Position numbers and translations under genes: made by a program
IMG/VR virus record: IMGVR_UViG_2585427727_000015
DNA length: 40,634 bases
Reading direction: 5' to 3' (one strand)
From: a virus
Taxonomy: Duplodnaviria > Heunggongvirae > Uroviricota > Caudoviricetes
Part shown: one piece after another, positions 5,839-27,422 of the stretch
Layout of the letters: each line of letters begins with the position of its first letter
Numbering within the stretch: the stretch's first letter is position 1
Notes under the pieces: generated by a model
What the model was told of the DNA's origin: nothing
Database searches by the model: none
Seen by the model: only the letters and a program-made list of their open reading frames with translations

Positions 5839-6069
5839 ATGAGCGATAACGGACATTTCGATTTCAAAAAGCACTGGCTTGCACTTACTCCGGATGAGCG
5901 TGAAGCCTTCGCACAGGAAGCCGGAACGACGAGTCACTATATCCAGACTCACTTAACAGGTAAGCGCAAAATGCCAGGTAAAGTATTGATGAATGGGCTT
6001 TTTAAAGCCTGTAAAACAAGGCAATGGCTGCGCTCAAAAGCAGAACTGGCATACTTCTTCTACTCATGA
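5839..6069 (+). CDS. Cro/YdaS-like small HTH regulator
   Basis: 76-aa ORF divergent from repressor across operator region; HTH-like segment QEAGTTSHYIQTHLTGKRK. Confidence 0.6.
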   Translation: MSDNGHFDFKKHWLALTPDEREAFAQEAGTTSHYIQTHLTGKRKMPGKVLMNGLFKACKTRQWLRSKAELAYFFYS

Positions 6070-14143: not shown

Positions 14144-14545
14144 TTACTTTTGTGATTTTGATTTTCTTTGATTGGCGGGATTTAAACCGCCATTTATATT
14201 TGCTAGTGGATTATTCAATAATGTACTGATTTCTGGGTTGTTAATTTTAGCAATGCCTAAATTTTTTGCAGACTCGTTAATCATTTGTACTATCTTTGGA
14301 TCAGCAAGTCTATTTGCAATTGAGTTGTTTGTTGTCAAATGAATACTTTCTTTATAAGACTTATATTCGTCTTTTAATTGTTTGTGAGCTTTTTCTAGAT
14401 TTTCTAGTTTAGATGTTGTTTCATCAATAACCTTAGATAATTCTAAAATACGAGCTTGTGCTGCGCGCAGTTCTATCTCCCTCTCTTTCAATTCAGATGT
14501 GAGTTGTCCCATTCTGTCTTTTGAAAGAATTATTTCCTCTTTCAT
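14144..14545 (-). CDS. AT-rich moron ORF, coiled-coil protein (133 aa), possibly C-terminal part of a frameshifted longer protein
   Basis: Low-GC ORF with heptad-like charged repeats; 5' end overlaps upstream ORF across an A8/T8 tract (14556-14563). Confidence 0.5.
   Translation of the reverse strand: MKEEIILSKDRMGQLTSELKEREIELRAAQARILELSKVIDETTSKLENLEKAHKQLKDEYKSYKESIHLTTNNSIANRLADPKIVQMINESAKNLGIAKINNPEISTLLNNPLANINGGLNPANQRKSKSQK
14173..14201 (+). terminator. Plus-strand intrinsic terminator ending the terS-terL transcript (embedded in 3' end of minus-strand moron ORF)
   Basis: TGGCGG-GATTTAAA-CCGCCA followed by TTTATATTT. Confidence 0.5.
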
Positions 14546-14993
14546 ATCTTGAATGTTTTTTTTCAGCGCCTGTTTTTACTTTTTCGTAAGTAATGTCTTT
14601 TTTAGCCAGCAATCTCTGTAGCCGTGTTTCACGTTGTATTTTTCTTGCCTTCCGGTGATTTTCGATTGAGTCATTATTATCAAGAGGCTTTGCTTGCCAT
14701 ACGTTAATGATATTGTTTACCCATGGTAATAGGCAGCAGATAGTAATTACAGATAAGCATGGATAAAACATAACAGTTTTCCATGTACTGTTATCTGAGA
14801 TATATGAAATTTTATCTATTATATTTGATTTGCTAAAAAATAGATAAAGAAGTGATTTCCAGTTGAAGGCGCACCAGGACATAACAAAAGCACCAAGCAC
14901 AGGGTTTTTAGCTCGATGCACGGCAGTGTTGGCAGTAGATAAAAACAGCTCTTTGAACGATTCGAACATACTAATTACCTTAAAGTTTTTCAT
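14493..14993 (-). CDS. AT-rich moron ORF, predicted membrane protein (about 166 aa, two hydrophobic segments), possibly N-terminal part of a frameshifted longer protein
   Basis: ATG 14993 (MKNFKV...); hydrophobic stretches NPVLGAFVMSWCAFNWKSLLYLFF and TVMFYPCLSVITICCLLPWVNNII; operator-like ATACC-N5-GGTAA at 14998-15012 overlaps RBS. Confidence 0.5.
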   Translation of the reverse strand: MKNFKVISMFESFKELFLSTANTAVHRAKNPVLGAFVMSWCAFNWKSLLYLFFSKSNIIDKISYISDNSTWKTVMFYPCLSVITICCLLPWVNNIINVWQAKPLDNNDSIENHRKARKIQRETRLQRLLAKKDITYEKVKTGAEKKHSRYERGNNSFKRQNGTTHI

Positions 14994-15218: not shown

Positions 15219-15295
15219 TGGCGTGGCATGCAGGATTCGAACCTGCGACCAACCGCTTAGAAGGCGGTTGCTCTGTCCAACTGAGCTAATGCCAC
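15219..15295 (-). tRNA. tRNA-Arg (anticodon UCU, reads AGA), argU-like
   Basis: 77-nt cloverleaf: acceptor GTGGCAT/ATGCCAC, D-arm GCTC...GAGC, anticodon stem ACCGC/GCGGT with loop CTTCTAA, T-arm GCAGG-TTCGAAT-CCTGC, 3' GCCA. Confidence 0.9.
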
Positions 15296-15943: not shown

Positions 15944-16255
15944 ATGGCGGAAACAACTAAAGAGCGATTGAACAAACAGTTCGCACAACTTGAAAGCGAG
16001 CGTCAGTCGTTCGAGCCGCACTGGCGCGAGTTGAGTGATTACATCAACCCGCGTGGTTCCCGCTTTCTGACTTCTGAGGTCAACCGTAACGATCGACGCA
16101 ATACACGCATTATTGATTCGACCGGGACTATGGCGGCGCGCACTCTCGCCAGCGGCATGATGTCAGGCATCACAAGCCCCGCGCGTCCGTGGTTTCGCCT
16201 GGCTACGCCAGATCCTGAAATGATGGATTATGGCCCTGTTAAGTTGTGGCTTTAG
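15944..16255 (+). CDS. Portal (head-tail connector) protein, N-terminal segment ending at in-frame TAG 16253-16255
   Basis: Same reading frame as 16271-17623 with a single stop between; GTMAARTLASGMMSGITSPARPWFRLATPD resembles (from memory) the T7 gp8 N-terminal region. Confidence 0.6.
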   Translation: MAETTKERLNKQFAQLESERQSFEPHWRELSDYINPRGSRFLTSEVNRNDRRNTRIIDSTGTMAARTLASGMMSGITSPARPWFRLATPDPEMMDYGPVKLWL

Positions 16256-16270
16256 GCGGGGCAGAACCGC

Positions 16271-17623
16271 ATGAACGATATGTTCAATAAGTCGAATCTC
16301 TATCAGTCGCTGCCGCAGTTATACGGAAGCCTCGGCACATACAGCACTGGCGCAATGGCGGTGCTGGAGGATGACGAGGACATCATTCGTACAATGCCAT
16401 TCCCGATAGGAAGTTACTACCTGGCTAACTCACCTCGTGGCAGTGTGGACACCTGTTTTCGCAAGTTCTCTATGACTGTTCGTCAGCTTGTTCAGGAGTT
16501 CGGACTAAATAACGTCAGCGAATCCGTAAAAAGCATGTGGGAAAGCGGCACCTACGAGAAGTGGATTGAAGTGATGCATTCGGTTTACCCGAACATTGAC
16601 CGCGATACATCGAAGCTGGATAGCAAGAACAAGCCATTCAAATCGGTTTATTACGAGGTTGGTGGCGATAACGACAAGTTGTTGCGTGAGTCCGGATTCG
16701 ATGAGTTTCCAATTATGGCTCCGCGCTGGGAAGTTAACGGCGAAGATGTTTATGGATCATCATGCCCGGGTATGCTGGCGCTTGGACCTGTTAAGGCATT
16801 GCAGCTTCTCCAGAAGCGCAAGTCGCAGTTGATTGATAAAGCCACCAATCCGCCGATGGTTGCTCCGACTTCCCTCAAGAATCAGCGCGCCTCCCTTCTT
16901 CCTGGCGACATCACGTATATCGATCAGATTACTGGTCAGGATGGCTTCAGGCCTGCTTATCTGGTTAACCCCAGTACAGCAGATTTGGTGGCAGACATTC
17001 AGGACACTCGTCAAATCATTAACAGCGCCTACTTTGTCGATCTGTTCATGATGTTGCAGAACATCAATACCCGCTCGATGCCTGTTGAAGCGGTGATCGA
17101 AATGAAAGAAGAAAAACTTCTGATGTTGGGGCCGGTTCTGGAGCGTCTGAACGACGAATGTCTTAATCCTCTCATTGACCGCGCTTTCTCGATGATGGTG
17201 CGTAAAAACATGCTGCCGCCACCGCCTGACGCGATGGAAGGCATGCCCCTGAAGGTCGAATACATTTCCGTCATGGCTCAGGCGCAGAAGTCTATCGGCC
17301 TGTCCAGTCTGGCGTCCACGGTTAACTTCATTGGTCAACTTGCGCAAGCGAAACCAGAAGCTCTCGACAAACTCAACGTTGATCAGGCGATCGATGCATT
17401 CGCTGATATGTCCGGAGTGTCTCCAACCGTCATTGTTCCGCAGGAACAGGTTGAGCAGGCTCGCCAGCAACGGGCACAGCAGCAACAGCAGCAACAAATG
17501 ATGGCGATGGGGATGGCGGCGGCACAGGGTGCCAAGACGCTAAGCGAAGCTAAAACTTCGGATCCGAGTGTTTTGTCAGCTATGGCGAATGCAGTTAGTG
17601 GTCAGGGTGGGCAATCACAATGA
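16271..17623 (+). CDS. Portal (head-tail connector) protein, main body
   Basis: 450-aa ORF; Gln/Ala/Met-rich C-terminal tail (QQRAQQQQQQQMMAMGMAAAQGA) typical of T7-type portals; position between terminase and scaffold/capsid. Confidence 0.8.
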   Translation: MNDMFNKSNLYQSLPQLYGSLGTYSTGAMAVLEDDEDIIRTMPFPIGSYYLANSPRGSVDTCFRKFSMTVRQLVQEFGLNNVSESVKSMWESGTYEKWIEVMHSVYPNIDRDTSKLDSKNKPFKSVYYEVGGDNDKLLRESGFDEFPIMAPRWEVNGEDVYGSSCPGMLALGPVKALQLLQKRKSQLIDKATNPPMVAPTSLKNQRASLLPGDITYIDQITGQDGFRPAYLVNPSTADLVADIQDTRQIINSAYFVDLFMMLQNINTRSMPVEAVIEMKEEKLLMLGPVLERLNDECLNPLIDRAFSMMVRKNMLPPPPDAMEGMPLKVEYISVMAQAQKSIGLSSLASTVNFIGQLAQAKPEALDKLNVDQAIDAFADMSGVSPTVIVPQEQVEQARQQRAQQQQQQQMMAMGMAAAQGAKTLSEAKTSDPSVLSAMANAVSGQGGQSQ

Positions 17624-20114: not shown

Positions 20115-20450
20115 ATGTCAGGTGAGAAACCAAGATACCGCGTTCTGCGCCTCTCTCATATCCATAACACTCTGTGGCCGGAGGGGGCAGAAATCGAATA
20201 CGAAGGTGAGCCTGGTAGCGCACTGGAACCTGTTAACGATGCAGCCAGACAGGCAAAAGCAAAAGTTGCAGGAAAGGTGTCAATGGCAGCAACCAGCACC
20301 AAAATCATCAACGATGTGTCAGATGATGGTGAACTGGATAAGCTCCGTGAAGAGTACGAATTGCTCTTTAACGAGAAGCCACACCATAACGCTAAAGCCG
20401 AAACGCTCCGCGAGAAGATCGCAGATAAGCGTAAAGAACTAGGCGTGTAA
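20115..20450 (+). CDS. Hypothetical protein (111 aa)
   Basis: AAGGTGA SD then ATG 20115; followed by intrinsic terminator. Confidence 0.5.
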   Translation: MSGEKPRYRVLRLSHIHNTLWPEGAEIEYEGEPGSALEPVNDAARQAKAKVAGKVSMAATSTKIINDVSDDGELDKLREEYELLFNEKPHHNAKAETLREKIADKRKELGV

Positions 20451-20466
20451 GCCTCGCGAATCCGAC

Positions 20467-20488
20467 AAGGGGCTTCGGCCCCTTTATT
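20467..20488 (+). terminator. Rho-independent terminator
   Basis: AAGGGGC-TTCG-GCCCCTT followed by TATT. Confidence 0.65.
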
Positions 20489-20500
20489 GCAGGAGTGTAT

Positions 20501-20824
20501 ATGGAACTCGTAAACCTCAAAACCGGCACTGACAGCTACCAGGATGAGAGCGGAGAAACCAGAACTCGCGATGAATACCCGTGGGGGCTGTGTATCACTC
20601 TTAATAACGACACATTGAATAAGCTGAAGGCGCAACCTCAGGGCGTCGGAACAGAAGTGATGATAACTGCAAAAGCTGTTATTCGAGGCCTGTCTGCCAG
20701 AGAAACTGACGATGGTGTTAATCGCAGCGCCGATCTGCAGATCACTGATATGGCGATCGCTCCTGTTTCCGGGGATGTAGAAAAATCAGCGGCTGAAACC
20801 CTGTACGGCAATGGGGGTGAGTAA
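20501..20824 (+). CDS. Hypothetical protein (107 aa)
   Basis: AGGAG SD then ATG 20501. Confidence 0.5.
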   Translation: MELVNLKTGTDSYQDESGETRTRDEYPWGLCITLNNDTLNKLKAQPQGVGTEVMITAKAVIRGLSARETDDGVNRSADLQITDMAIAPVSGDVEKSAAETLYGNGGE

Positions 20825-21429
20825 TGGCCTCTGTAGTAGAGATCTGCAATCGTGCGCTGTCCAATATTGGCAATAGCCGCAGCATTAACAGCCTGACGGA
20901 AGCCAGCAAGGAAGCGGGGGAATGTTCGCTGCACTTTGAGGCCTGCCGTGATGCTGTGCTTTCTGATTTTGACTGGAACTTTGCTACCAAACGCGTGGCG
21001 CTTGCAGATACGAGCAATCCACCGCCTGACTGGGAATATGCGTATCAGTACCCGTCCGATTGTCTGCGCATTACTGAAATTATGCTTCCTGGTGTACGCA
21101 ATCCAACAGCAGCAATGCGCGTTCAGTACGAAGTTGGTGCAGACACCAACGGAACAGGAAAGTTGATCTACACAGACCAGCCGCAGGCATGGCTCAAGTA
21201 TGTCTCTCGCGTTTCAGATGTGAACATGTTTGATGCCATTTTTATGGAGGCGTTGGCCTGGCGTCTTGCGGCAGCTATTAACATGGCGCTGACTGGGAAT
21301 GCAGACCTCGGTACGTTTGCCCTCAATATGTACAATCGCGTGATTCTTAGTGCTGGCTCGCATAGCCAGAATGAATCACAGGAACCACTGCCACCGGTTG
21401 ACGAGTTTACCATTGCGAGGTTGTCCTGA
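20824..21429 (+). CDS. Tail adaptor protein (T7 gp11-like tail tubular protein A), tentative
   Basis: 201-aa ORF; N-terminal VVEICNRALSNIGNS...INSL pattern resembling gp11-type adaptors (from memory); size and position upstream of nozzle-sized gene. Confidence 0.5.
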   Translation: MASVVEICNRALSNIGNSRSINSLTEASKEAGECSLHFEACRDAVLSDFDWNFATKRVALADTSNPPPDWEYAYQYPSDCLRITEIMLPGVRNPTAAMRVQYEVGADTNGTGKLIYTDQPQAWLKYVSRVSDVNMFDAIFMEALAWRLAAAINMALTGNADLGTFALNMYNRVILSAGSHSQNESQEPLPPVDEFTIARLS

Positions 21430-23900
21430 TGGCTATCAGTTGGATCCAGCCCAGCTTTGCCGGTGGTGAGATTGGACCGTCGTTGTACGGTCGTATCGAC
21501 ATGGCGAAGTACCAGGTGGCATTGCGCAAGTGCGATAACTTTATCGTGCGGCAGTATGGCGGAGTTGAGAATCGACCTGGTACGCGTTTTGTCGGTGCCG
21601 CCAAATACCCAAATCGGAAATGCCGCCTGATCCCGTTCCAGTTCTCGACGGTTCAGACTTATGCTCTGGAGTTCGGACACCAGTACATGCGCGTTATCAA
21701 AGATGGTGCGTTGGTGCTGAACAGCAGCAATGTTATTTATGAAATTTCCACGCCATATACTGAAGCCGATCTGTTCCGAATTAAATTCACGCAAAGCGCA
21801 GACGTGCTTACGCTGGTTCATCCGGCATACCCGCCGAAAGAGTTGCGCCGCTATGCGCATGACAACTGGCAACTGGTTGATGTGGTAACGAAGAACGGGC
21901 CATTTGAAGATATCAATATTGACGAGTCAGTGACGGTTTATGCCAGCGCCAGCACCGGGACAATTACGCTAACGGCAAGCGCCTCTATTTTTGGCGCGGA
22001 GCAGGTAGGCAAATTGTTCTATCTGGAACAGCCTGCAGTGGATTCTGTGCCGGTATGGGAAACCAGTAAGAGTACGTCGATTGGCGATATTCGCCGTGCA
22101 GACAGTAACTACTATCGCGCCGTTACAGCAGGCAAAACAGGTACTTTGCGCCCTTCGCATACAGAAGGCACATCATGGGATGGCTGGGGCGGATCCGGTG
22201 ATGATGATACTGGCATTGAGTGGGAATATCTGCACAGTGGTTTTGGCATTGCCCGTATCACTGCTGCAAATGGAACTACTGCAACTGCCGAGGTGATTTC
22301 CTATATCCCTTCGCAGGTTGTGGGCGAGGATAATGCCAGCTATAAATGGGCTAAATATGCCTGGAACAGTGTTAATGGTTATCCTGGCACTGTTGTTTAT
22401 TATCAACAACGTCTTTACTTCGCCGCATCGACTGCGTTTCCTCAGACTATCTGGGCCAGCCGTACCGGGGATTATAAGGATTTTGGCAAAAGCAATCCTA
22501 CGCAGGATGACGACAGAATTATCTACACCTATGCCGGGCGTCAGGTTAATGAGATCCGTCACCTGATTGATGTTGGTTCTCTGGTGGCGCTGACTTCCGG
22601 AGGTGAGTACGTCATCACCGGCGACCAGAACAAAGTGTTAACCCCATCATCATTTGCATTCAGCTCTCAGGGATCAAATGGCTCAAGCAACGTCCCGCCA
22701 ATTGCCGTGGCGAATATTGCTCTGTTCGTCCAGGAGAAAGGCAGCGTTGTCCGTGATCTGGCCTACTCATTCGATGTTGACGGCTATCAGGGGAACGACC
22801 TGACCATCCTTGCCAATCATCTTTTTCAGAGGCACAGCATTGTTGACTGGTGCTTCTCTATTGTCCCTTACTCCAGCGCCTTCTGCATTCGTGATGACGG
22901 TAAATTACTGGTGATGACCTATTTGCGTGATCAGCAGGTTTTTGCATGGGCACCACAATCCAGTACCGGAAAATATGAAAGTACATGCAGTATCAGCGAA
23001 GGCAATGAAGATGCGGTGTATTTCGTCGTTAACCGAACCGTTAACGGGCAAACAGTGAGATACATCGAGCGACTGTCCAGCCGTTTATTTACCAGCGATG
23101 AAGATGCTTTCTTTGTTGATTCTGGCCTTAGCTATGATGGAAGAAATACGTCTGACAGAACGATGATCATCACTGGTGGTTCTGGCGAATGGGATTACCG
23201 CGCGGAATATACAATCAGTGTTTCTGGTGGTGCGTACTTCACCAGTAGTGATGTCGGTGCGCAACTACAGTTCCCTTATACCGGAACTGATCCTGATACT
23301 GGCGATGAAGTGTCAAAAGAATTACGTTGCGACATTATTTCTGTAACCAGCAACACCGCTGTAGTGGTTCGTGCTAACAGGAACGTCCCGCCATCCCTCA
23401 GGAATGTGGCCACCACGAACTGGCAGATGGCGCGCCGGGCATTTGGCGGCTTGTCTCATCTTGAAGGTCAGACCGTAAACATCCTCTCTGATGCGAACGT
23501 GGAACCACAGAAAGTAGTTTCCGGAGGTGCCGTCACGCTGGAATCACCGGGGGCTGTAGTGCACATCGGCCTGCCAATAACTGCTGAATTCGAAACACTG
23601 GATATCAACATTAACGGACAGGAAACGCTGCTGGACAAAAAACAGGTGATCCCATCCGTTACTCTGGTTGTGAATGCCAGCCGCGGCATCTGGGCGACTA
23701 CGCCCGGCGGTAAATGGTACGAATATCCACAGCGTGAATTCGAGTTCTACGATGATCCTGTTGATGATGCTACCGGAAAAGTAGAAGTGAAACTGGACAG
23801 TAACTGGGGCAAAAACGGACGTGTAAAAATCCGTCAGCTTGATCCGTTGCCGCTGTCTGTTCTTGCCGTTATTCCTCGCCTTACTGTTGGGGGATTCTGA
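21429..23900 (+). CDS. Tail nozzle protein (T7 gp12-like tail tubular protein B), tentative
   Basis: 823-aa ORF overlapping upstream stop (TGATG); size and position. Confidence 0.55.
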   Translation: MAISWIQPSFAGGEIGPSLYGRIDMAKYQVALRKCDNFIVRQYGGVENRPGTRFVGAAKYPNRKCRLIPFQFSTVQTYALEFGHQYMRVIKDGALVLNSSNVIYEISTPYTEADLFRIKFTQSADVLTLVHPAYPPKELRRYAHDNWQLVDVVTKNGPFEDINIDESVTVYASASTGTITLTASASIFGAEQVGKLFYLEQPAVDSVPVWETSKSTSIGDIRRADSNYYRAVTAGKTGTLRPSHTEGTSWDGWGGSGDDDTGIEWEYLHSGFGIARITAANGTTATAEVISYIPSQVVGEDNASYKWAKYAWNSVNGYPGTVVYYQQRLYFAASTAFPQTIWASRTGDYKDFGKSNPTQDDDRIIYTYAGRQVNEIRHLIDVGSLVALTSGGEYVITGDQNKVLTPSSFAFSSQGSNGSSNVPPIAVANIALFVQEKGSVVRDLAYSFDVDGYQGNDLTILANHLFQRHSIVDWCFSIVPYSSAFCIRDDGKLLVMTYLRDQQVFAWAPQSSTGKYESTCSISEGNEDAVYFVVNRTVNGQTVRYIERLSSRLFTSDEDAFFVDSGLSYDGRNTSDRTMIITGGSGEWDYRAEYTISVSGGAYFTSSDVGAQLQFPYTGTDPDTGDEVSKELRCDIISVTSNTAVVVRANRNVPPSLRNVATTNWQMARRAFGGLSHLEGQTVNILSDANVEPQKVVSGGAVTLESPGAVVHIGLPITAEFETLDININGQETLLDKKQVIPSVTLVVNASRGIWATTPGGKWYEYPQREFEFYDDPVDDATGKVEVKLDSNWGKNGRVKIRQLDPLPLSVLAVIPRLTVGGF

Positions 23901-24364
23901 TGATCGATGTTCAAATTATTCCCGCAACCGAAGAGCATCTTCAGATGATTTTGCCGGATGTTCGTCAGGCTGATATTGACGAACTGTATGCGGTATCACT
24001 GATGACTACCGAAGATGCGCTGCGTGTTGGTCTGCGTACTGCGACTATGGCCTGGTCAGGATTTGCGAACGGAGAACTGGTAACCATGTTTGGCGTATCT
24101 CCGGCGTCAATGATCGGTGGCAATGGTACGCCCTGGCTGGTCGGAACCAGCCGTATCGAAAAATATCAGAAGACATTTCTTCGCCACTGCCGCCCTGTAT
24201 TGCAGCAGATGCTGGCAGTTTATCCGCGCCTGGAAAACTATGTCGACGAGCGAAACCATGTTGCCAAAGCATGGCTGCACTGGCTTGGATTCAGGCTTGA
24301 AGAAGCCGCGCCTTATGGTGCTCTTGGTCTTAATTTCCACAGATTTCACATGGAGAGAAAATAA
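23900..24364 (+). CDS. Putative internal virion protein (154 aa)
   Basis: ATGA overlap with nozzle gene; position in ejection-protein cluster. Confidence 0.45.
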   Translation: MIDVQIIPATEEHLQMILPDVRQADIDELYAVSLMTTEDALRVGLRTATMAWSGFANGELVTMFGVSPASMIGGNGTPWLVGTSRIEKYQKTFLRHCRPVLQQMLAVYPRLENYVDERNHVAKAWLHWLGFRLEEAAPYGALGLNFHRFHMERK

Positions 24365-24909
24365 TGTGCGATCCGGTTATTGCTGGTGGCGCAATGCTCG
24401 CCATGAGTGGCATTCAGGCATACACCCAGTACCAACAGGGAAAGTATGCCTCGAAGGTTGCAGAAGCGAACGCAGATATAGCCACAGCTCAGGCAAATGA
24501 TGCAATAAACAGAGGTAACGCTGAAGCTGAGCAACGGCGCAGAGAGACCCGACAGCGGCTTGGTACACAGGCGGCGACAATGGGGGCTACCGGCGCTGAT
24601 TTATCTACAGGTAACGCGCTGGATATATTTGGCGACACTGCCCAGTTTGGCGCTCTTGATTCTCTGACGACGGTGAATAACGCGCAACGCGAGGCTTACG
24701 GTTATCAGGTTCAGGCTGCCAACTATAAAGCAGAAGCCAGTTCAGCCCGTAAACAGGGGAATGTGGGAGCAGCAACAACATTGCTCACTGCGCCTCTGAA
24801 GGCATACGGTGCGTACCAGATGTTTGGTGGGACGTGGAGTCCGTTTACTCAAAGCACCCCTGCGCCAATCGGGGCAGCAGCAGGAACCAGATTACCCGGA
24901 GGATTATAA
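24364..24909 (+). CDS. Putative internal virion protein B-like (181 aa; Ala/Gln-rich, starts MC)
   Basis: Composition and position analogous to T7 gp14-type proteins. Confidence 0.45.
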   Translation: MCDPVIAGGAMLAMSGIQAYTQYQQGKYASKVAEANADIATAQANDAINRGNAEAEQRRRETRQRLGTQAATMGATGADLSTGNALDIFGDTAQFGALDSLTTVNNAQREAYGYQVQAANYKAEASSARKQGNVGAATTLLTAPLKAYGAYQMFGGTWSPFTQSTPAPIGAAAGTRLPGGL

Positions 24910-27422
24910 TGCCAGTCGTACCAACAGTATCCGGCCGTCAGGTTCAGAGCCGTGGAGTTCAGTCAGCAGGCTTGCAGACGTTTTCTCAGCCAGGTATTGG
25001 TGATGCTTTTGTTCGGGCAGGGACAGAGGCAATTGATGTTTTTGGTCAGGCAAAACAGCGTGCCAATATCGCTCTGGCTCAGGAGGCATCTCTTAACCTC
25101 AGTCAGATAAGCAGTGATCTGCTGAATAATCCTGAAACAGGATTGCTTAACCTGAAAGGGAAAAATGCTATTGGAAAAGGTCAGGAGTATACGCAGCAGT
25201 TTGATGCTCAGGTCGAACAACTGGCTATGTCGCTGCCGGATGAACAGGCTCGTAATGCTTTCATGCAGCAGGCGCAGCAGCAGCGCATTCAGTTCACTAC
25301 GCAGGCAGGGCGGCACGAGATAGGGCAAATAAATGCCTACGAAGAAGGCCAGTTTCAGGCTACGCTGCTGAACAATGGTAAAAATGCCGCAGCATTGTAT
25401 GGCGACAACGCCGCATACGTATTGGCTAATAAGCAAACTTTCCAGCAAATTGAGGATTACGGCATTGCACATGGCTGGAGTGACGAGCAAATCCAGGCCA
25501 AGAAAATCGAGTTTAAAGAGAAGGTTGCTGATGCTGCATTGTCCCAGTGGTCGGCAAACAATGCGACCGCATTCATCCAAAGTAATGGCGAGTTAAGTGA
25601 TACTGCTGCTGGAGCTCGCCGTGCTGTAGCAGATAGTGACTCTTCCGAGCGTGCCCGTGGCATACGCAACAATAACCCAGGAAATCTCGAATACAGCAAA
25701 ACTAATCCGTGGGTAGGCCAGACCGGTGATGATGGTCGATTTGCTAAATTCGAAACACCTGAACACGGGATTCGTGCATTAGGGCGGAACCTGATGTCGT
25801 ATCAGAGGCAGGGTATTGATACCGTCAGCGAGATAATTAATCGCTGGGCACCGCCTACTGATAAAAATGACACTATGTCGTATATCAAAGCAGTGTGCGA
25901 ACAACTTGGCGTTTCTGCTGATGAGCCTCTCGATGCATCTAATCCTGATACCCTGAAGGCGCTTTGTGCAGCCATTATCCATCATGAGAACGGTAGCCAG
26001 CCATACAGTGATCAGCAGTTAACTGCTGGTGTCAGTGCAGCACTTGGTTTATCAACAATTCCAACCAACACCAAACGCTATACCGGTAATGCAGCATTCG
26101 ATGCGGCATCTCCTGAGGCGCAGGCAAGTTTTATGCGACAGGCGGATCAACTGCGTCGGCAGCAGCAGGCTGAATATAAAACGATGATTGACAGCCAGGT
26201 TCGCGATGCGACAGCTGCGTATATGCGTGGCGTTGAATTTCCTAACCCACCTGGTGAGGCTGATTTTATTGCAGCTTATGGAGTAAGAGAAGGAAACCTG
26301 CGATATACCGAGTTCAGAAATACGCAAATCGCCGGACAGTATATAGGCTCTTTCCGCAACATGCCGACAAGCAGCATTACAGCATATGTTGAGCAATTAC
26401 GCCCGGATACTGGTGAGACAGGGGAGGGTTATGCGGCACGAGCCGCTCTTTATGACAACGTTGTGTCGGCTGCAAGTCAGGTGATAAAGCAGCGACAGGC
26501 TGATCCTGTACAGTTCTCTCTTGCCGCCGGACAGGCAAAGCCTATCGACATGAGCAATAAGGATAACTTTGGACAGAGCGTTGCCTTGCGTGCTGCTCAG
26601 GTCAGTGACCTTGCTAAGTCATATGGCACTCCACTGACGTTCTTTTCCAAAGACGAGGCCAATCAGATCGGTGTTTTCTTTCGTGATGCGCCCGTTTCCC
26701 AACAGGCAGCATATCTCGATACCATCAGGCAGAGCACTGGTGGTGGGCAGGTGTATATGTCAGCACTACAGCAGATCAGTGCCAACGCTCCATCTGCTGC
26801 CGTTGCCGGGATACTGATGGATAAGCCAGGTGGTATTTTGGCAGAAAAAAACTGGTTTAATCCGGATGTTTCCGTGTCTCCTGAAACCGCTGCGCAGACA
26901 ATTCTTGCTGGCGCGGCGGCTCGTAAAGGTACTGATGACGCGAAAGGTATTCCGATGCCTAAAGATGCCGATCTCCGCCTTGAGTTTTCTGACATGGTGA
27001 AGGATGCATTTGCTGGTGATGCTCAGGGGGCATCAATGGCATACGAGATCGCAAAGGACTATTACGCTGGTGTGATGGCGAAAAAAGGCGTGGTATCAGG
27101 CGAAATTGACAATGATATCTGGAAACAGGCTGTTAACGTAGCTACAGGTGGCGTGCATGACTATAACGGAATGGGGAATGTTCTTTTGCCGTGGGGAATG
27201 TCTGCAGAGCAATTCGATAAGCAGGTTAATCAGGCTTGGAATGAACAAGTTGTTGGCACAGGGATAAAAACACCGCCTGGTCAGTATGGTTTGCAAAGTT
27301 ACGGCGATAGTCAGTACCTGGTGAAACTTGGTACTGGTTATCTGCTAAAAGATGATGGTTCTCCCGTTGTTCTTGATCTGACACAGAAGCGTCAGAGATT
27401 CTCCGGAGATATTCCGCAATGA
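24909..27422 (+). CDS. Internal virion/ejection protein (837 aa) with conserved NNNPGNL...W..RFAKF...GIRA motif (possible cell-wall-acting domain)
   Basis: ATG 24909 overlaps upstream TAA (TAATG); large Gln/Ala-rich protein in ejection-protein cluster. Confidence 0.55.
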   Translation: MPVVPTVSGRQVQSRGVQSAGLQTFSQPGIGDAFVRAGTEAIDVFGQAKQRANIALAQEASLNLSQISSDLLNNPETGLLNLKGKNAIGKGQEYTQQFDAQVEQLAMSLPDEQARNAFMQQAQQQRIQFTTQAGRHEIGQINAYEEGQFQATLLNNGKNAAALYGDNAAYVLANKQTFQQIEDYGIAHGWSDEQIQAKKIEFKEKVADAALSQWSANNATAFIQSNGELSDTAAGARRAVADSDSSERARGIRNNNPGNLEYSKTNPWVGQTGDDGRFAKFETPEHGIRALGRNLMSYQRQGIDTVSEIINRWAPPTDKNDTMSYIKAVCEQLGVSADEPLDASNPDTLKALCAAIIHHENGSQPYSDQQLTAGVSAALGLSTIPTNTKRYTGNAAFDAASPEAQASFMRQADQLRRQQQAEYKTMIDSQVRDATAAYMRGVEFPNPPGEADFIAAYGVREGNLRYTEFRNTQIAGQYIGSFRNMPTSSITAYVEQLRPDTGETGEGYAARAALYDNVVSAASQVIKQRQADPVQFSLAAGQAKPIDMSNKDNFGQSVALRAAQVSDLAKSYGTPLTFFSKDEANQIGVFFRDAPVSQQAAYLDTIRQSTGGGQVYMSALQQISANAPSAAVAGILMDKPGGILAEKNWFNPDVSVSPETAAQTILAGAAARKGTDDAKGIPMPKDADLRLEFSDMVKDAFAGDAQGASMAYEIAKDYYAGVMAKKGVVSGEIDNDIWKQAVNVATGGVHDYNGMGNVLLPWGMSAEQFDKQVNQAWNEQVVGTGIKTPPGQYGLQSYGDSQYLVKLGTGYLLKDDGSPVVLDLTQKRQRFSGDIPQ

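What the first reader, a model, noticed from the sequence alone, without database searches (positions are those of the whole stretch)
16241..16273. In-frame amber (TAG) codon inside the portal gene
ORFs 15944-16255 and 16271-17623 are in the same frame, separated only by TAG at 16253-16255 (context TGG CTT TAG GCG GGG CAG). The flanking protein segments read as one continuous portal domain. This is either a nonsense mutation that makes the prophage defective (a single C-to-T change from CAG would give it), a sequencing error, or a site of stop-codon suppression/read-through or reinitiation (GGGG lies 9 nt before ATG 16271). The tRNA carried by the phage is Arg(UCU), not a suppressor.
Basis: seen in the sequence. 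Interest (0 to 1): 0.65.

Follow-up and report, generated by a model that had tools for sequence, protein, structure and literature searches.

The report
Likely sequencing-error stop in portal gene
The amber codon that splits this prophage's portal gene is really in the deposited sequence, but it is most likely a repeatable Illumina base-calling error fixed in a few draft assemblies, not a biological stop or a recoding signal.

Summary
TAG at 16253-16255 splits a 559-codon portal gene (15944-17623) of a phiV10-like prophage into 103-aa and 450-aa ORFs in one frame.

The ancestral codon is GAG (Glu), not CAG. A second transversion lies 7 nt downstream (GTG to GGG, V106G).

All 21 related phage genomes and all ~516 complete E. 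coli genomes with this locus have one intact gene. So do ~180 viral and metagenome contigs, apart from one TAG contig that duplicates an assembly already counted and three contigs with other disruptions at the site.

The same changes recur as one-offs on at least 8 different portal haplotypes. Three of these have zero-difference intact twins. The changes occur in every combination: 16253 only, 16260 only, both, and both plus 16255.

Carriers with a known source cluster in two submission batches. Each changed base copies the preceding base and is the third base after a GGC. The second change is the published canonical Illumina error (GGC...GGT read as GGG). Other assemblies break exactly at this base.

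Best explanation: a sequence-specific sequencing error (about 0.75). Main rival: a genuine null mutation that makes the prophage defective (about 0.17). Suppression, read-through or a two-piece portal has no support. Strand-resolved reads or Sanger sequencing would settle it.

The parts
15944..17623 (+). Portal gene (Head-tail_con, PF12236), 559 codons, interrupted at codon 104 in this window
   Evidence: phiV10, AST20 and S87 annotate a single 1680-nt CDS at the same position. It is about 60% identical to the solved portal 8ck0.
16253..16255 (+). TAG in place of GAG (Glu104); G-to-T at 16253, the third base after GGC 16248-16250, copying the two preceding T
   Evidence: 127 of 138 aligned loci have G here, and every locus with T came from the stop-directed look-ups.
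16260..16260 (+). T-to-G (GTG to GGG, V106G): GGC-GG-T read as G, the canonical Illumina GGT-to-GGG systematic error
   Evidence: Meacham 2011 (PMC3295828). The same change occurs alone on one contig, OKU26033.1.
16248..16257 (+). Two GGC motifs (16248-16250 and 16255-16257), each 3 nt upstream of a changed base
   Evidence: Sequence. Nakamura 2011 identifies GGC within 10 nt upstream as the trigger of sequence-specific errors (PMC3141275).
16256..16286 (.). Two adjacent 5-bp hairpins in the intact allele (GCGGT..ACCGC and TGAAC..GTTCA); the 16260 change breaks the first
   Evidence: DNA fold of the intact 61-mer gives -10 kcal/mol, z = -2.6.
16271..16273 (+). ATG (Met110), start of the 450-aa downstream ORF; an ordinary internal Met of the intact portal
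15219..15295 (-). tRNA-Arg(UCU), the only tRNA in the window; not a suppressor

Best explanation
The TAG (G16253T) and the neighbouring T16260G are most likely not in the bacterial DNA. They look like a repeatable, sequence-specific Illumina base-calling error that was fixed in the consensus of a few short-read draft assemblies. Proposed mechanism (inferred): two closely spaced GGC motifs and small hairpins slow base extension, so lagging strands in a cluster make the base caller repeat the preceding base. That gives TT[G read as T] and GG[T read as G] in reads of one direction. Roughly half the reads then carry the false allele, and the assembler either picks it or breaks the contig at that base. 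On this reading the portal gene is a normal intact 559-aa gene and the prophage looks complete. Shown: recurrence on unrelated haplotypes, rarity, clustering in batches, the error signature, and contig breaks at the site. Inferred: the read-level strand bias, which these tools cannot examine.
For: (1) One intact gene with GAG..GTG is present in phiV10, AST20 and S87, in all 21 phage records and in all ~516 complete E. coli genomes with the locus. The best match to the window's 71-mer is 97.2%, which is 2 mismatches.
(2) Unbiased scans: 119 of 120 IMG/VR loci and 58 of 59 metagenome contigs have no stop or frameshift here, and the one exception in each set is a 1-nt deletion. A scan of all IMG/VR for the TAG pattern finds one contig, which is the same assembly as L008. 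The same TAG scan of the metagenome contigs found none.
(3) The stop sits on 8 portal haplotypes that differ from each other by 8-29 nt. Three have intact twins with 0 differences over the other 1668 nt (L007~L116, L010~L122/L141, L012~L167), and the window is 1 nt from AST20.
(4) The 450-aa products of the six other carrier haplotypes looked up are each on a single contig, whereas the four repaired full-length proteins looked up are on 49 to over 1000 contigs.
(5) Every combination occurs: 16253 only (L008), 16260 only (OKU26033.1, one contig in the whole collection), both, and both plus G16255A giving TAA (L005). This fits independent per-base miscalls, not one inherited allele.
(6) Carriers with a known source cluster in two submission batches: 5-366-08_S1_C1, S1_C3 and S4_C1 in one, and OKT, OKU and OKW accessions in the other. 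Each batch holds several unrelated haplotypes.
(7) All three substitutions copy the 5' neighbouring base. The two main ones are the third base after a GGC, and GGC..GGT read as GGG is the strongest published systematic-error motif. Published work also says such errors are replicable across runs, affect one read direction (about half the reads) and make contigs branch at the site (PMC3141275; PMC3295828).
(8) Two other assemblies end exactly at 16252 and 16253 (L014, L013).
(9) Internal control: the sibling assembly L006 differs from the window by 3 transversions in 20.3 kb, each unique among 57-98 loci. Two are of the type GGC..GGG[T read as G] or [C read as G].
(10) Every other structural, lysis, replication and integration gene that AST20 shares with the window is intact, and the carriers' portal sequences show no extra damage relative to their twins.
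Against: No reads were available, so strand bias and base quality at 16253 and 16260 are untested. At least three isolates from one subject carry the stop, which also fits inheritance. Consensus-level errors at two or three positions, produced by several different assemblers (the submitters' pipelines, Logan, SPAdes, JGI), require the false allele to be the majority path, which is demanding. About five other tandem GGC-XX-Y sites in the well-covered part of the prophage show no recurrent variants. G-to-T after TT is less canonical than GGT-to-GGG. At under about 0.3% frequency, absence from 516 complete genomes is only weak evidence. Real events do occur at this spot: a deletion endpoint in a complete genome, and a 1-nt deletion that is clonal in many samples. 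L005 also has a real 5.4-kb deletion, so that prophage is defective anyway.
Confidence: 0.75

Rival explanations
1. The stop is a genuine nonsense mutation. Codon 104 GAG became TAG in this strain's prophage, the full-length portal is not made, and the prophage cannot assemble virions in a non-suppressor host. Its recurrence would then reflect a structure-driven mutational hot spot at this quasi-palindromic, GGC-rich site.
For: The stop is present in sibling isolates from the same stool series. Real lesions map to the same few bases: the 1.45-kb deletion endpoint in complete genome ETEC4075, and a 1-nt deletion (delta-C16257) on 227 contigs, mostly of one prophage type. A second gene in the window is also broken by a T7-to-T8 homopolymer change. 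Both substitutions turn mismatches into base pairs in a quasi-palindrome, 16233-43 against 16252-62.
Against: The same double transversion on at least 4 backgrounds that are otherwise identical to intact genes would need an extraordinary hot spot. All partial combinations exist as singletons within two submission batches. A copied quasi-palindrome tract would also have changed positions 16254-16258, and it did not. No ectopic template exists in the prophage. The stop is absent from every complete and virion-derived genome. The rest of the prophage shows no decay.
Confidence: 0.17
2. The stop is a real allele of single origin that spread among phiV10-like phages by short-patch recombination. 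These phages encode RecT and an exonuclease. The allele would be tolerated because the stop is bypassed: by an amber suppressor in the host, by read-through, or by reinitiation at Met110 to give a working two-piece portal of 103 + 450 aa.
For: The downstream ORF is intact in every carrier. T16260G creates GGGG 9 nt upstream of ATG 16271. A different allele (delta-C) gives a TGA overlapping that ATG and the same 450-aa product. The phages are mosaic.
Against: A rare allele (under about 0.3%) on 8 haplotypes, with flanking markers already mixed within 50-70 nt on both sides, is not what a single origin predicts. L008 would need a crossover inside a 6-nt interval (16254-16259). L005 carries TAA, which an amber suppressor does not read. 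There is no suppressor tRNA in the prophage. The break falls inside one continuous Pfam domain, in a segment conserved with the solved portal 8ck0. No virion-derived genome carries the stop.
Confidence: 0.04
3. The changes are escape mutations from CRISPR self-targeting of the prophage, with a type I-E PAM (GAG, 16253-55) plus seed (16256-63), or they result from selection against portal expression by portal-sensing defence systems.
For: All disrupted alleles fall within an 11-nt span that could be read as PAM plus seed.
Against: This is post hoc. Neither the 71-nt nor the 91-nt query gave any non-portal place in 5426 complete genomes, and the one short match that was inspected is a deletion junction, not a spacer. 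GAG is a weak PAM (my own knowledge). A PAM change alone would suffice, so the double change is unexplained. It also does not explain the clustering in batches.
Confidence: 0.01

Closest known systems
Illumina sequence-specific / systematic errors at GGC and GGT motifs (Nakamura et al. 2011, PMC3141275; Meacham et al. 2011, PMC3295828)
   Same: GGC lies within 10 nt upstream of each changed base. The miscalled base equals the preceding base. GGT is read as GGG after GGC motifs. The same positions recur in independent samples. Contigs branch or end at the site. Small inverted repeats lie next to it.
   Different: Here the error is inferred from assembled consensus sequences, not seen in reads. 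G-to-T after TT is less typical than T-to-G. Comparable GGC sites nearby show no recurrent variants.
Portal (head-to-tail connector) of phiV10 / epsilon15-like phages (Uetakevirus), Pfam PF12236, solved relative PDB 8ck0
   Same: 99% DNA identity to the phiV10 portal gene, the same length (559 codons), and the same position between terminase and Bbp19/protease/capsid genes.
   Different: The window's copy carries TAG at codon 104 and Gly at 106. No characterised member does.
Classical amber (conditional-lethal) mutants of phage portal genes, and nonsense-inactivated genes in defective prophages (general knowledge)
   Same: An in-frame TAG inside an essential virion gene would block assembly in a host without a suppressor.
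   Different: It is not clonal: it recurs on unrelated haplotypes in all partial combinations. The prophage is otherwise intact, and no suppressor is present.
Programmed stop-codon read-through, or genes naturally split into two ORFs
   Same: Two same-frame ORFs are separated by one stop, with a downstream ATG 15 nt away.
   Different: The stop is absent from essentially all relatives, so nothing is conserved that could be called programmed.

Membership tests
Phage portal protein, Head-tail_con (PF12236) | Significant full-length match to the family profile | tested here: met
   The repaired protein matches at E = 1.6e-187 over profile positions 2-488 of 489. The two window ORFs match positions 2-98 and 105-488.
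Phage portal protein, Head-tail_con (PF12236) | One continuous ORF, located between the large terminase and the scaffold/protease/capsid genes | tested here: inconclusive
   The gene order is as expected and relatives have one ORF. The window sequence itself has an internal TAG.
Illumina sequence-specific (systematic) error | GGC within about 10 nt upstream of the error position | tested here: met
   GGC at 16248-50 precedes 16253, and GGC at 16255-57 precedes 16260. The criterion comes from PMC3141275.
Illumina sequence-specific (systematic) error | [quoted passage not shown] | tested here: met
   TT[G to T], GG[T to G], and A[G to A] in L005.
Illumina sequence-specific (systematic) error | Replicable at the same position in independent samples, whatever the genetic background | tested here: met
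   8 haplotypes carry the change, 3 of them with zero-difference intact twins, and all partial combinations occur.
Illumina sequence-specific (systematic) error | Seen in reads of one direction only, with low base quality | not testable with these tools
   No read data are available. Indirect evidence only: contigs end at 16252 and 16253 in L014 and L013.
Illumina sequence-specific (systematic) error | Absent from assemblies made with other technologies or better data | tested here: met
   None of ~516 complete genomes and none of 21 phage genomes carries it. This is weak evidence because the allele is rare overall.
Programmed read-through or suppressor-dependent gene | The stop codon is conserved among relatives | tested here: not met
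   GAG, or synonymous sense variants, in over 700 related loci.
Programmed read-through or suppressor-dependent gene | A cognate suppressor tRNA is encoded by the element | tested here: not met
   The only tRNA is Arg(tct). The host genome was not available.
Defective (decaying) prophage | Several essential genes disrupted or deleted | tested here: not met
   Every structural, lysis, replication and integration gene shared with AST20 is intact except the portal. One accessory gene has a homopolymer frameshift.

The most novel reading that the evidence does not exclude
The lesions at 16253-16262 are real. On this reading, a structure-prone, GGC-rich quasi-palindrome in the portal gene of phiV10-like prophages is a genuine hot spot. 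It repeatedly produces null or split alleles: TAG104, TAA104, delta-C16257, TAG107 and a deletion endpoint. All of them leave the 450-aa C-terminal ORF startable at Met110. This could give a recurrent route to prophage grounding, or even a functional two-piece portal.
Probability: 0.08. Interest if true: 0.55.

Novelty: not a real feature. Interest (0 to 1): 0.2.

Why it matters
If the stop were taken at face value, this complete-looking prophage would be scored as defective, or the TAG would be read as evidence of stop-codon suppression. The analysis shows how one error-prone motif can plant the same false amber codon in unrelated public draft genomes. It also gives practical warning signs: one-off variants on common haplotypes, all partial combinations present, clustering in submission batches, and a changed base that copies its 5' neighbour after a GGC. 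If the stop is real after all, it only marks an ordinary inactivating mutation, unless the hot-spot reading holds.

Tried and rejected
1. Single clonal nonsense mutation. Rejected because the carriers have 8 different haplotypes and identical intact twins.

2. Spread by recombination. Flanking markers are already mixed within 50-70 nt, and L008 would need a crossover inside 6 nt.

3. Quasi-palindrome template switching. Both changes do improve a hairpin between 16233-43 and 16252-62. However, the intervening non-complementary positions 16254-16258 are unchanged, so a copied tract does not fit.

4. Ectopic template in the prophage. There is no other copy of TAGGCGGG, and no 23-mer matching at 15 or more positions.

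5. CRISPR spacer. No non-portal match appeared in the complete genomes. One of the two short matches was inspected and is a microhomology deletion junction in ETEC4075; the other was not examined.

6. General low quality of the carrier assemblies. Only L006 shows extra error-like singletons; the other carriers do not.

7. Other recurrent rare variants shared by the carriers. None were found in the covered region.

8. Frequency argument from complete genomes. On reflection this is weak, because the allele is under about 0.3% everywhere.

A scan of the metagenome contigs for the TAG pattern found nothing. Literature searches for 8CK0 and for strain 5-366-08 found nothing.

Full report
**Observation.** The window is a phiV10-like (Uetakevirus) prophage inserted next to guaA in E. 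coli. It is 99.5% identical over its first 20 kb to the prophage of strain AST20. It is 99.985% identical to contig JONE01000042 of the E. coli 5-366-08 isolate series. TAG lies at 16253-16255. ORFs 15944-16255 (103 aa) and 16271-17623 (450 aa) share a frame, and together they make 559 codons with one stop. Pfam PF12236 (Head-tail_con) runs straight across the break. The protein aligns end to end with the solved portal 8ck0. The only tRNA in the window is Arg(UCU).

**What relatives have.** phiV10, AST20 and S87 annotate a single 1680-nt portal CDS at the same place. Alignment shows two differences within 8 nt. GAG became TAG (G16253T), so the ancestral codon is not CAG. GTG became GGG (T16260G, V106G). 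No phage record (21) and no complete E. coli genome with the locus (~516) carries either change; the best match to the window's 71-mer is 97.2%, which is 2 mismatches. Unbiased pattern scans gave these counts:

| Collection | Loci scanned | No stop or frameshift at the site | Exceptions |
|---|---|---|---|
| IMG/VR viral contigs | 120 | 119 | one 1-nt deletion |
| Metagenome contigs | 59 | 58 | one 1-nt deletion |

A scan of all IMG/VR for the TAG pattern found one contig, which is the same assembly as L008.

**Where the stop is found.** The exact 103-aa product is on record from NCBI, JGI, ENA and Logan assemblies. The carriers are not a clone.
- The stop sits on eight portal haplotypes that differ from one another by 8-29 nt, inside differently mosaic prophages.
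- Three carriers have intact twins with zero differences over the remaining 1668 nt: L007~L116, L010~L122/L141 and L012~L167. The window is one base from AST20.
- The 450-aa product of each of the six other carrier haplotypes looked up occurs on a single contig. The four repaired full-length proteins looked up occur on 49 to over 1000 contigs.
- The three variable positions occur in every combination: T16253 alone (L008), G16260 alone (OKU26033.1, one contig in the whole collection), both together (window, L006, L007, L009-L012), and both plus G16255A, which gives TAA (L005).
- The carriers with known sources fall into two submission batches. One holds 5-366-08_S1_C1, S1_C3 and S4_C1: the same subject, two different prophages, and GGG only in the S1 isolates. 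The other holds the OKT/OKU/OKW accession block with assemblies LGMM, LGMU and LRLH, which carry three more haplotypes. That the second block is a single batch is my inference from the accession numbers.

A rare variant that appears as one-offs on common haplotypes, in all partial combinations, concentrated in two batches, is not how an inherited allele behaves.

**Error signature.** Each substitution copies the base before it: TT[G to T], GG[T to G], and A[G to A] in L005. The two main changes are each the third base after a GGC (16248-50 and 16255-57). Two small hairpins lie immediately at and after the site.
- Nakamura et al. (PMC3141275) describe this pattern for Illumina. Errors are triggered by GGC within 10 nt upstream and by inverted repeats. 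[quoted passage not shown] The errors are sometimes confined to a few positions shared by almost half the reads, in one direction only, and they make contigs appear to branch at the site.
- Meacham et al. (PMC3295828) find that GGT read as GGG, especially after GGC motifs, is the strongest systematic-error motif. They also find that it is highly replicable between experiments and that all calls in one direction can be wrong.

Two further observations are consistent with this.
- Two other assemblies end exactly at 16252 and 16253 (L014 and L013).
- The sibling assembly L006 differs from the window by three transversions in 20.3 kb. Each is unique among 57-98 aligned loci. Two are of the type GGC..GGG[T to G] or [C to G]. 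This serves as an internal control showing that this batch does contain such consensus errors.

**State of the prophage.** Every structural, lysis, replication and integration gene that AST20 shares with the window is intact, except the portal and one accessory gene. That accessory gene (259 aa) is split by a T7-to-T8 homopolymer change. The carriers' portal sequences show no extra amino-acid damage relative to their intact twins.

**Alternatives.**
- A real nonsense mutation cannot be excluded without reads. Siblings share the stop, and real lesions do map to this spot. One is a 1.45-kb microhomology deletion whose left end is at 16250-52 in complete genome ETEC4075. Another is a 1-nt deletion (delta-C16257, giving 109 aa plus 450 aa) on 227 contigs, mostly of one prophage type. 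Even so, the same double transversion arising independently at least four times would need an extraordinary hot spot.
- A quasi-palindrome mechanism fits only superficially. Both changes improve pairing with 16233-43, but the intervening mismatches were not converted. No ectopic template exists in the prophage.
- A single origin with recombination is contradicted by mixed flanking markers within 50-70 nt and by L008.
- Suppression, read-through or a two-piece portal lacks any conservation. L005 carries TAA. The GGGG 'Shine-Dalgarno' is itself the suspect GGT-to-GGG change.
- A CRISPR-escape idea found no spacer.

**Weaknesses of the favoured view.** There is no read-level evidence. Several different assemblers must each have chosen the false path. 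Comparable GGC sites nearby show no recurrent variants. The allele is so rare (under about 0.3%) that its absence from complete genomes carries little weight.

**Verdict.** The most likely explanation is a sequence-specific sequencing error fixed in a draft consensus (about 0.75). A genuine null mutation that makes the prophage defective is the main rival (about 0.17). A functional bypass or another biological process accounts for about 0.05 together. Strand-resolved inspection of the reads, or Sanger sequencing of 16100-16400, would decide it.

Noticed in passing
window 14144-14993 (- strand), homopolymer at 14549-14556: A 259-aa accessory gene is intact in AST20 and has a T7 run in 14 other loci. 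Here a T8 run splits it into two overlapping ORFs (14493-14993 and 14144-14545), and there is also an AT insertion at 14218-14219. The sibling assembly L006 shares both changes. This could be a real slip-strand change or a homopolymer error.
   Followed up: partly
L015:2675-3004, L017, L111, L154 (equivalent to window 16257): A 1-nt deletion (GAGGCGGTG to GAGGGGTG) 4 nt from the TAG gives a 109-aa ORF. Its TGA overlaps ATG 16271 (ATGA), and the same 450-aa ORF follows. It is on 227 contigs, mostly of one prophage type but on at least 3 haplotypes, and it is absent from the complete genomes.
   Followed up: partly
L018:2674-2994 (equivalent to window 16262): A third disrupted allele, CAG107 to TAG, sits on a haplotype that is otherwise identical to the intact loci L020 and L108. 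The 106-aa product is on 8 contigs.
   Followed up: partly
L200 (NZ_CP122652.1, ETEC4075) 6028-6032; window 16250-16253 joined to 17705: In a complete genome with a heavily decayed prophage, a 1.45-kb deletion with CTT/TTT microhomology cuts the portal right after codon 103. This is the same spot as the TAG.
   Followed up: yes
window 14015, 19601, 21829 versus L006: The sibling assembly L006 has three private transversions in 20.3 kb. Two are in GGC..GGG contexts with the changed base copying its neighbour. They are probably consensus errors in that sequencing batch.
   Followed up: yes
L005 (LRLH01000169.1), relative to window 20341-25788: This TAA-carrying prophage also lacks about 5.4 kb of head-completion and tail genes, with a fused 622-aa ORF in their place. 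It is defective whatever the status of the portal.
   Followed up: no
window 16233-16243 against 16252-16262: This is an imperfect inverted repeat. The two substitutions, and L005's third one, each convert a mismatch or a G.T pair into a Watson-Crick pair. In every case the base this predicts is also the preceding base, so the two readings cannot be separated on that ground alone.
   Followed up: partly
L026 (IMGVR_UViG_2778261360_000001), equivalent to window about 16198: This contig shares rare terminase alleles with the delta-C carriers. It has the intact site but a different 1-nt deletion 58 nt upstream (CGCCTGG to CGCTGG). P0011 is a further frameshifted N-terminal product. Overall, the 5' part of this gene collects indels in draft assemblies.
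   Followed up: no
window 15219-15295 (-): A tRNA-Arg(UCU) lies between the accessory gene and the portal operon. It is conserved in AST20, S87 and ETEC4075.
   Followed up: yes
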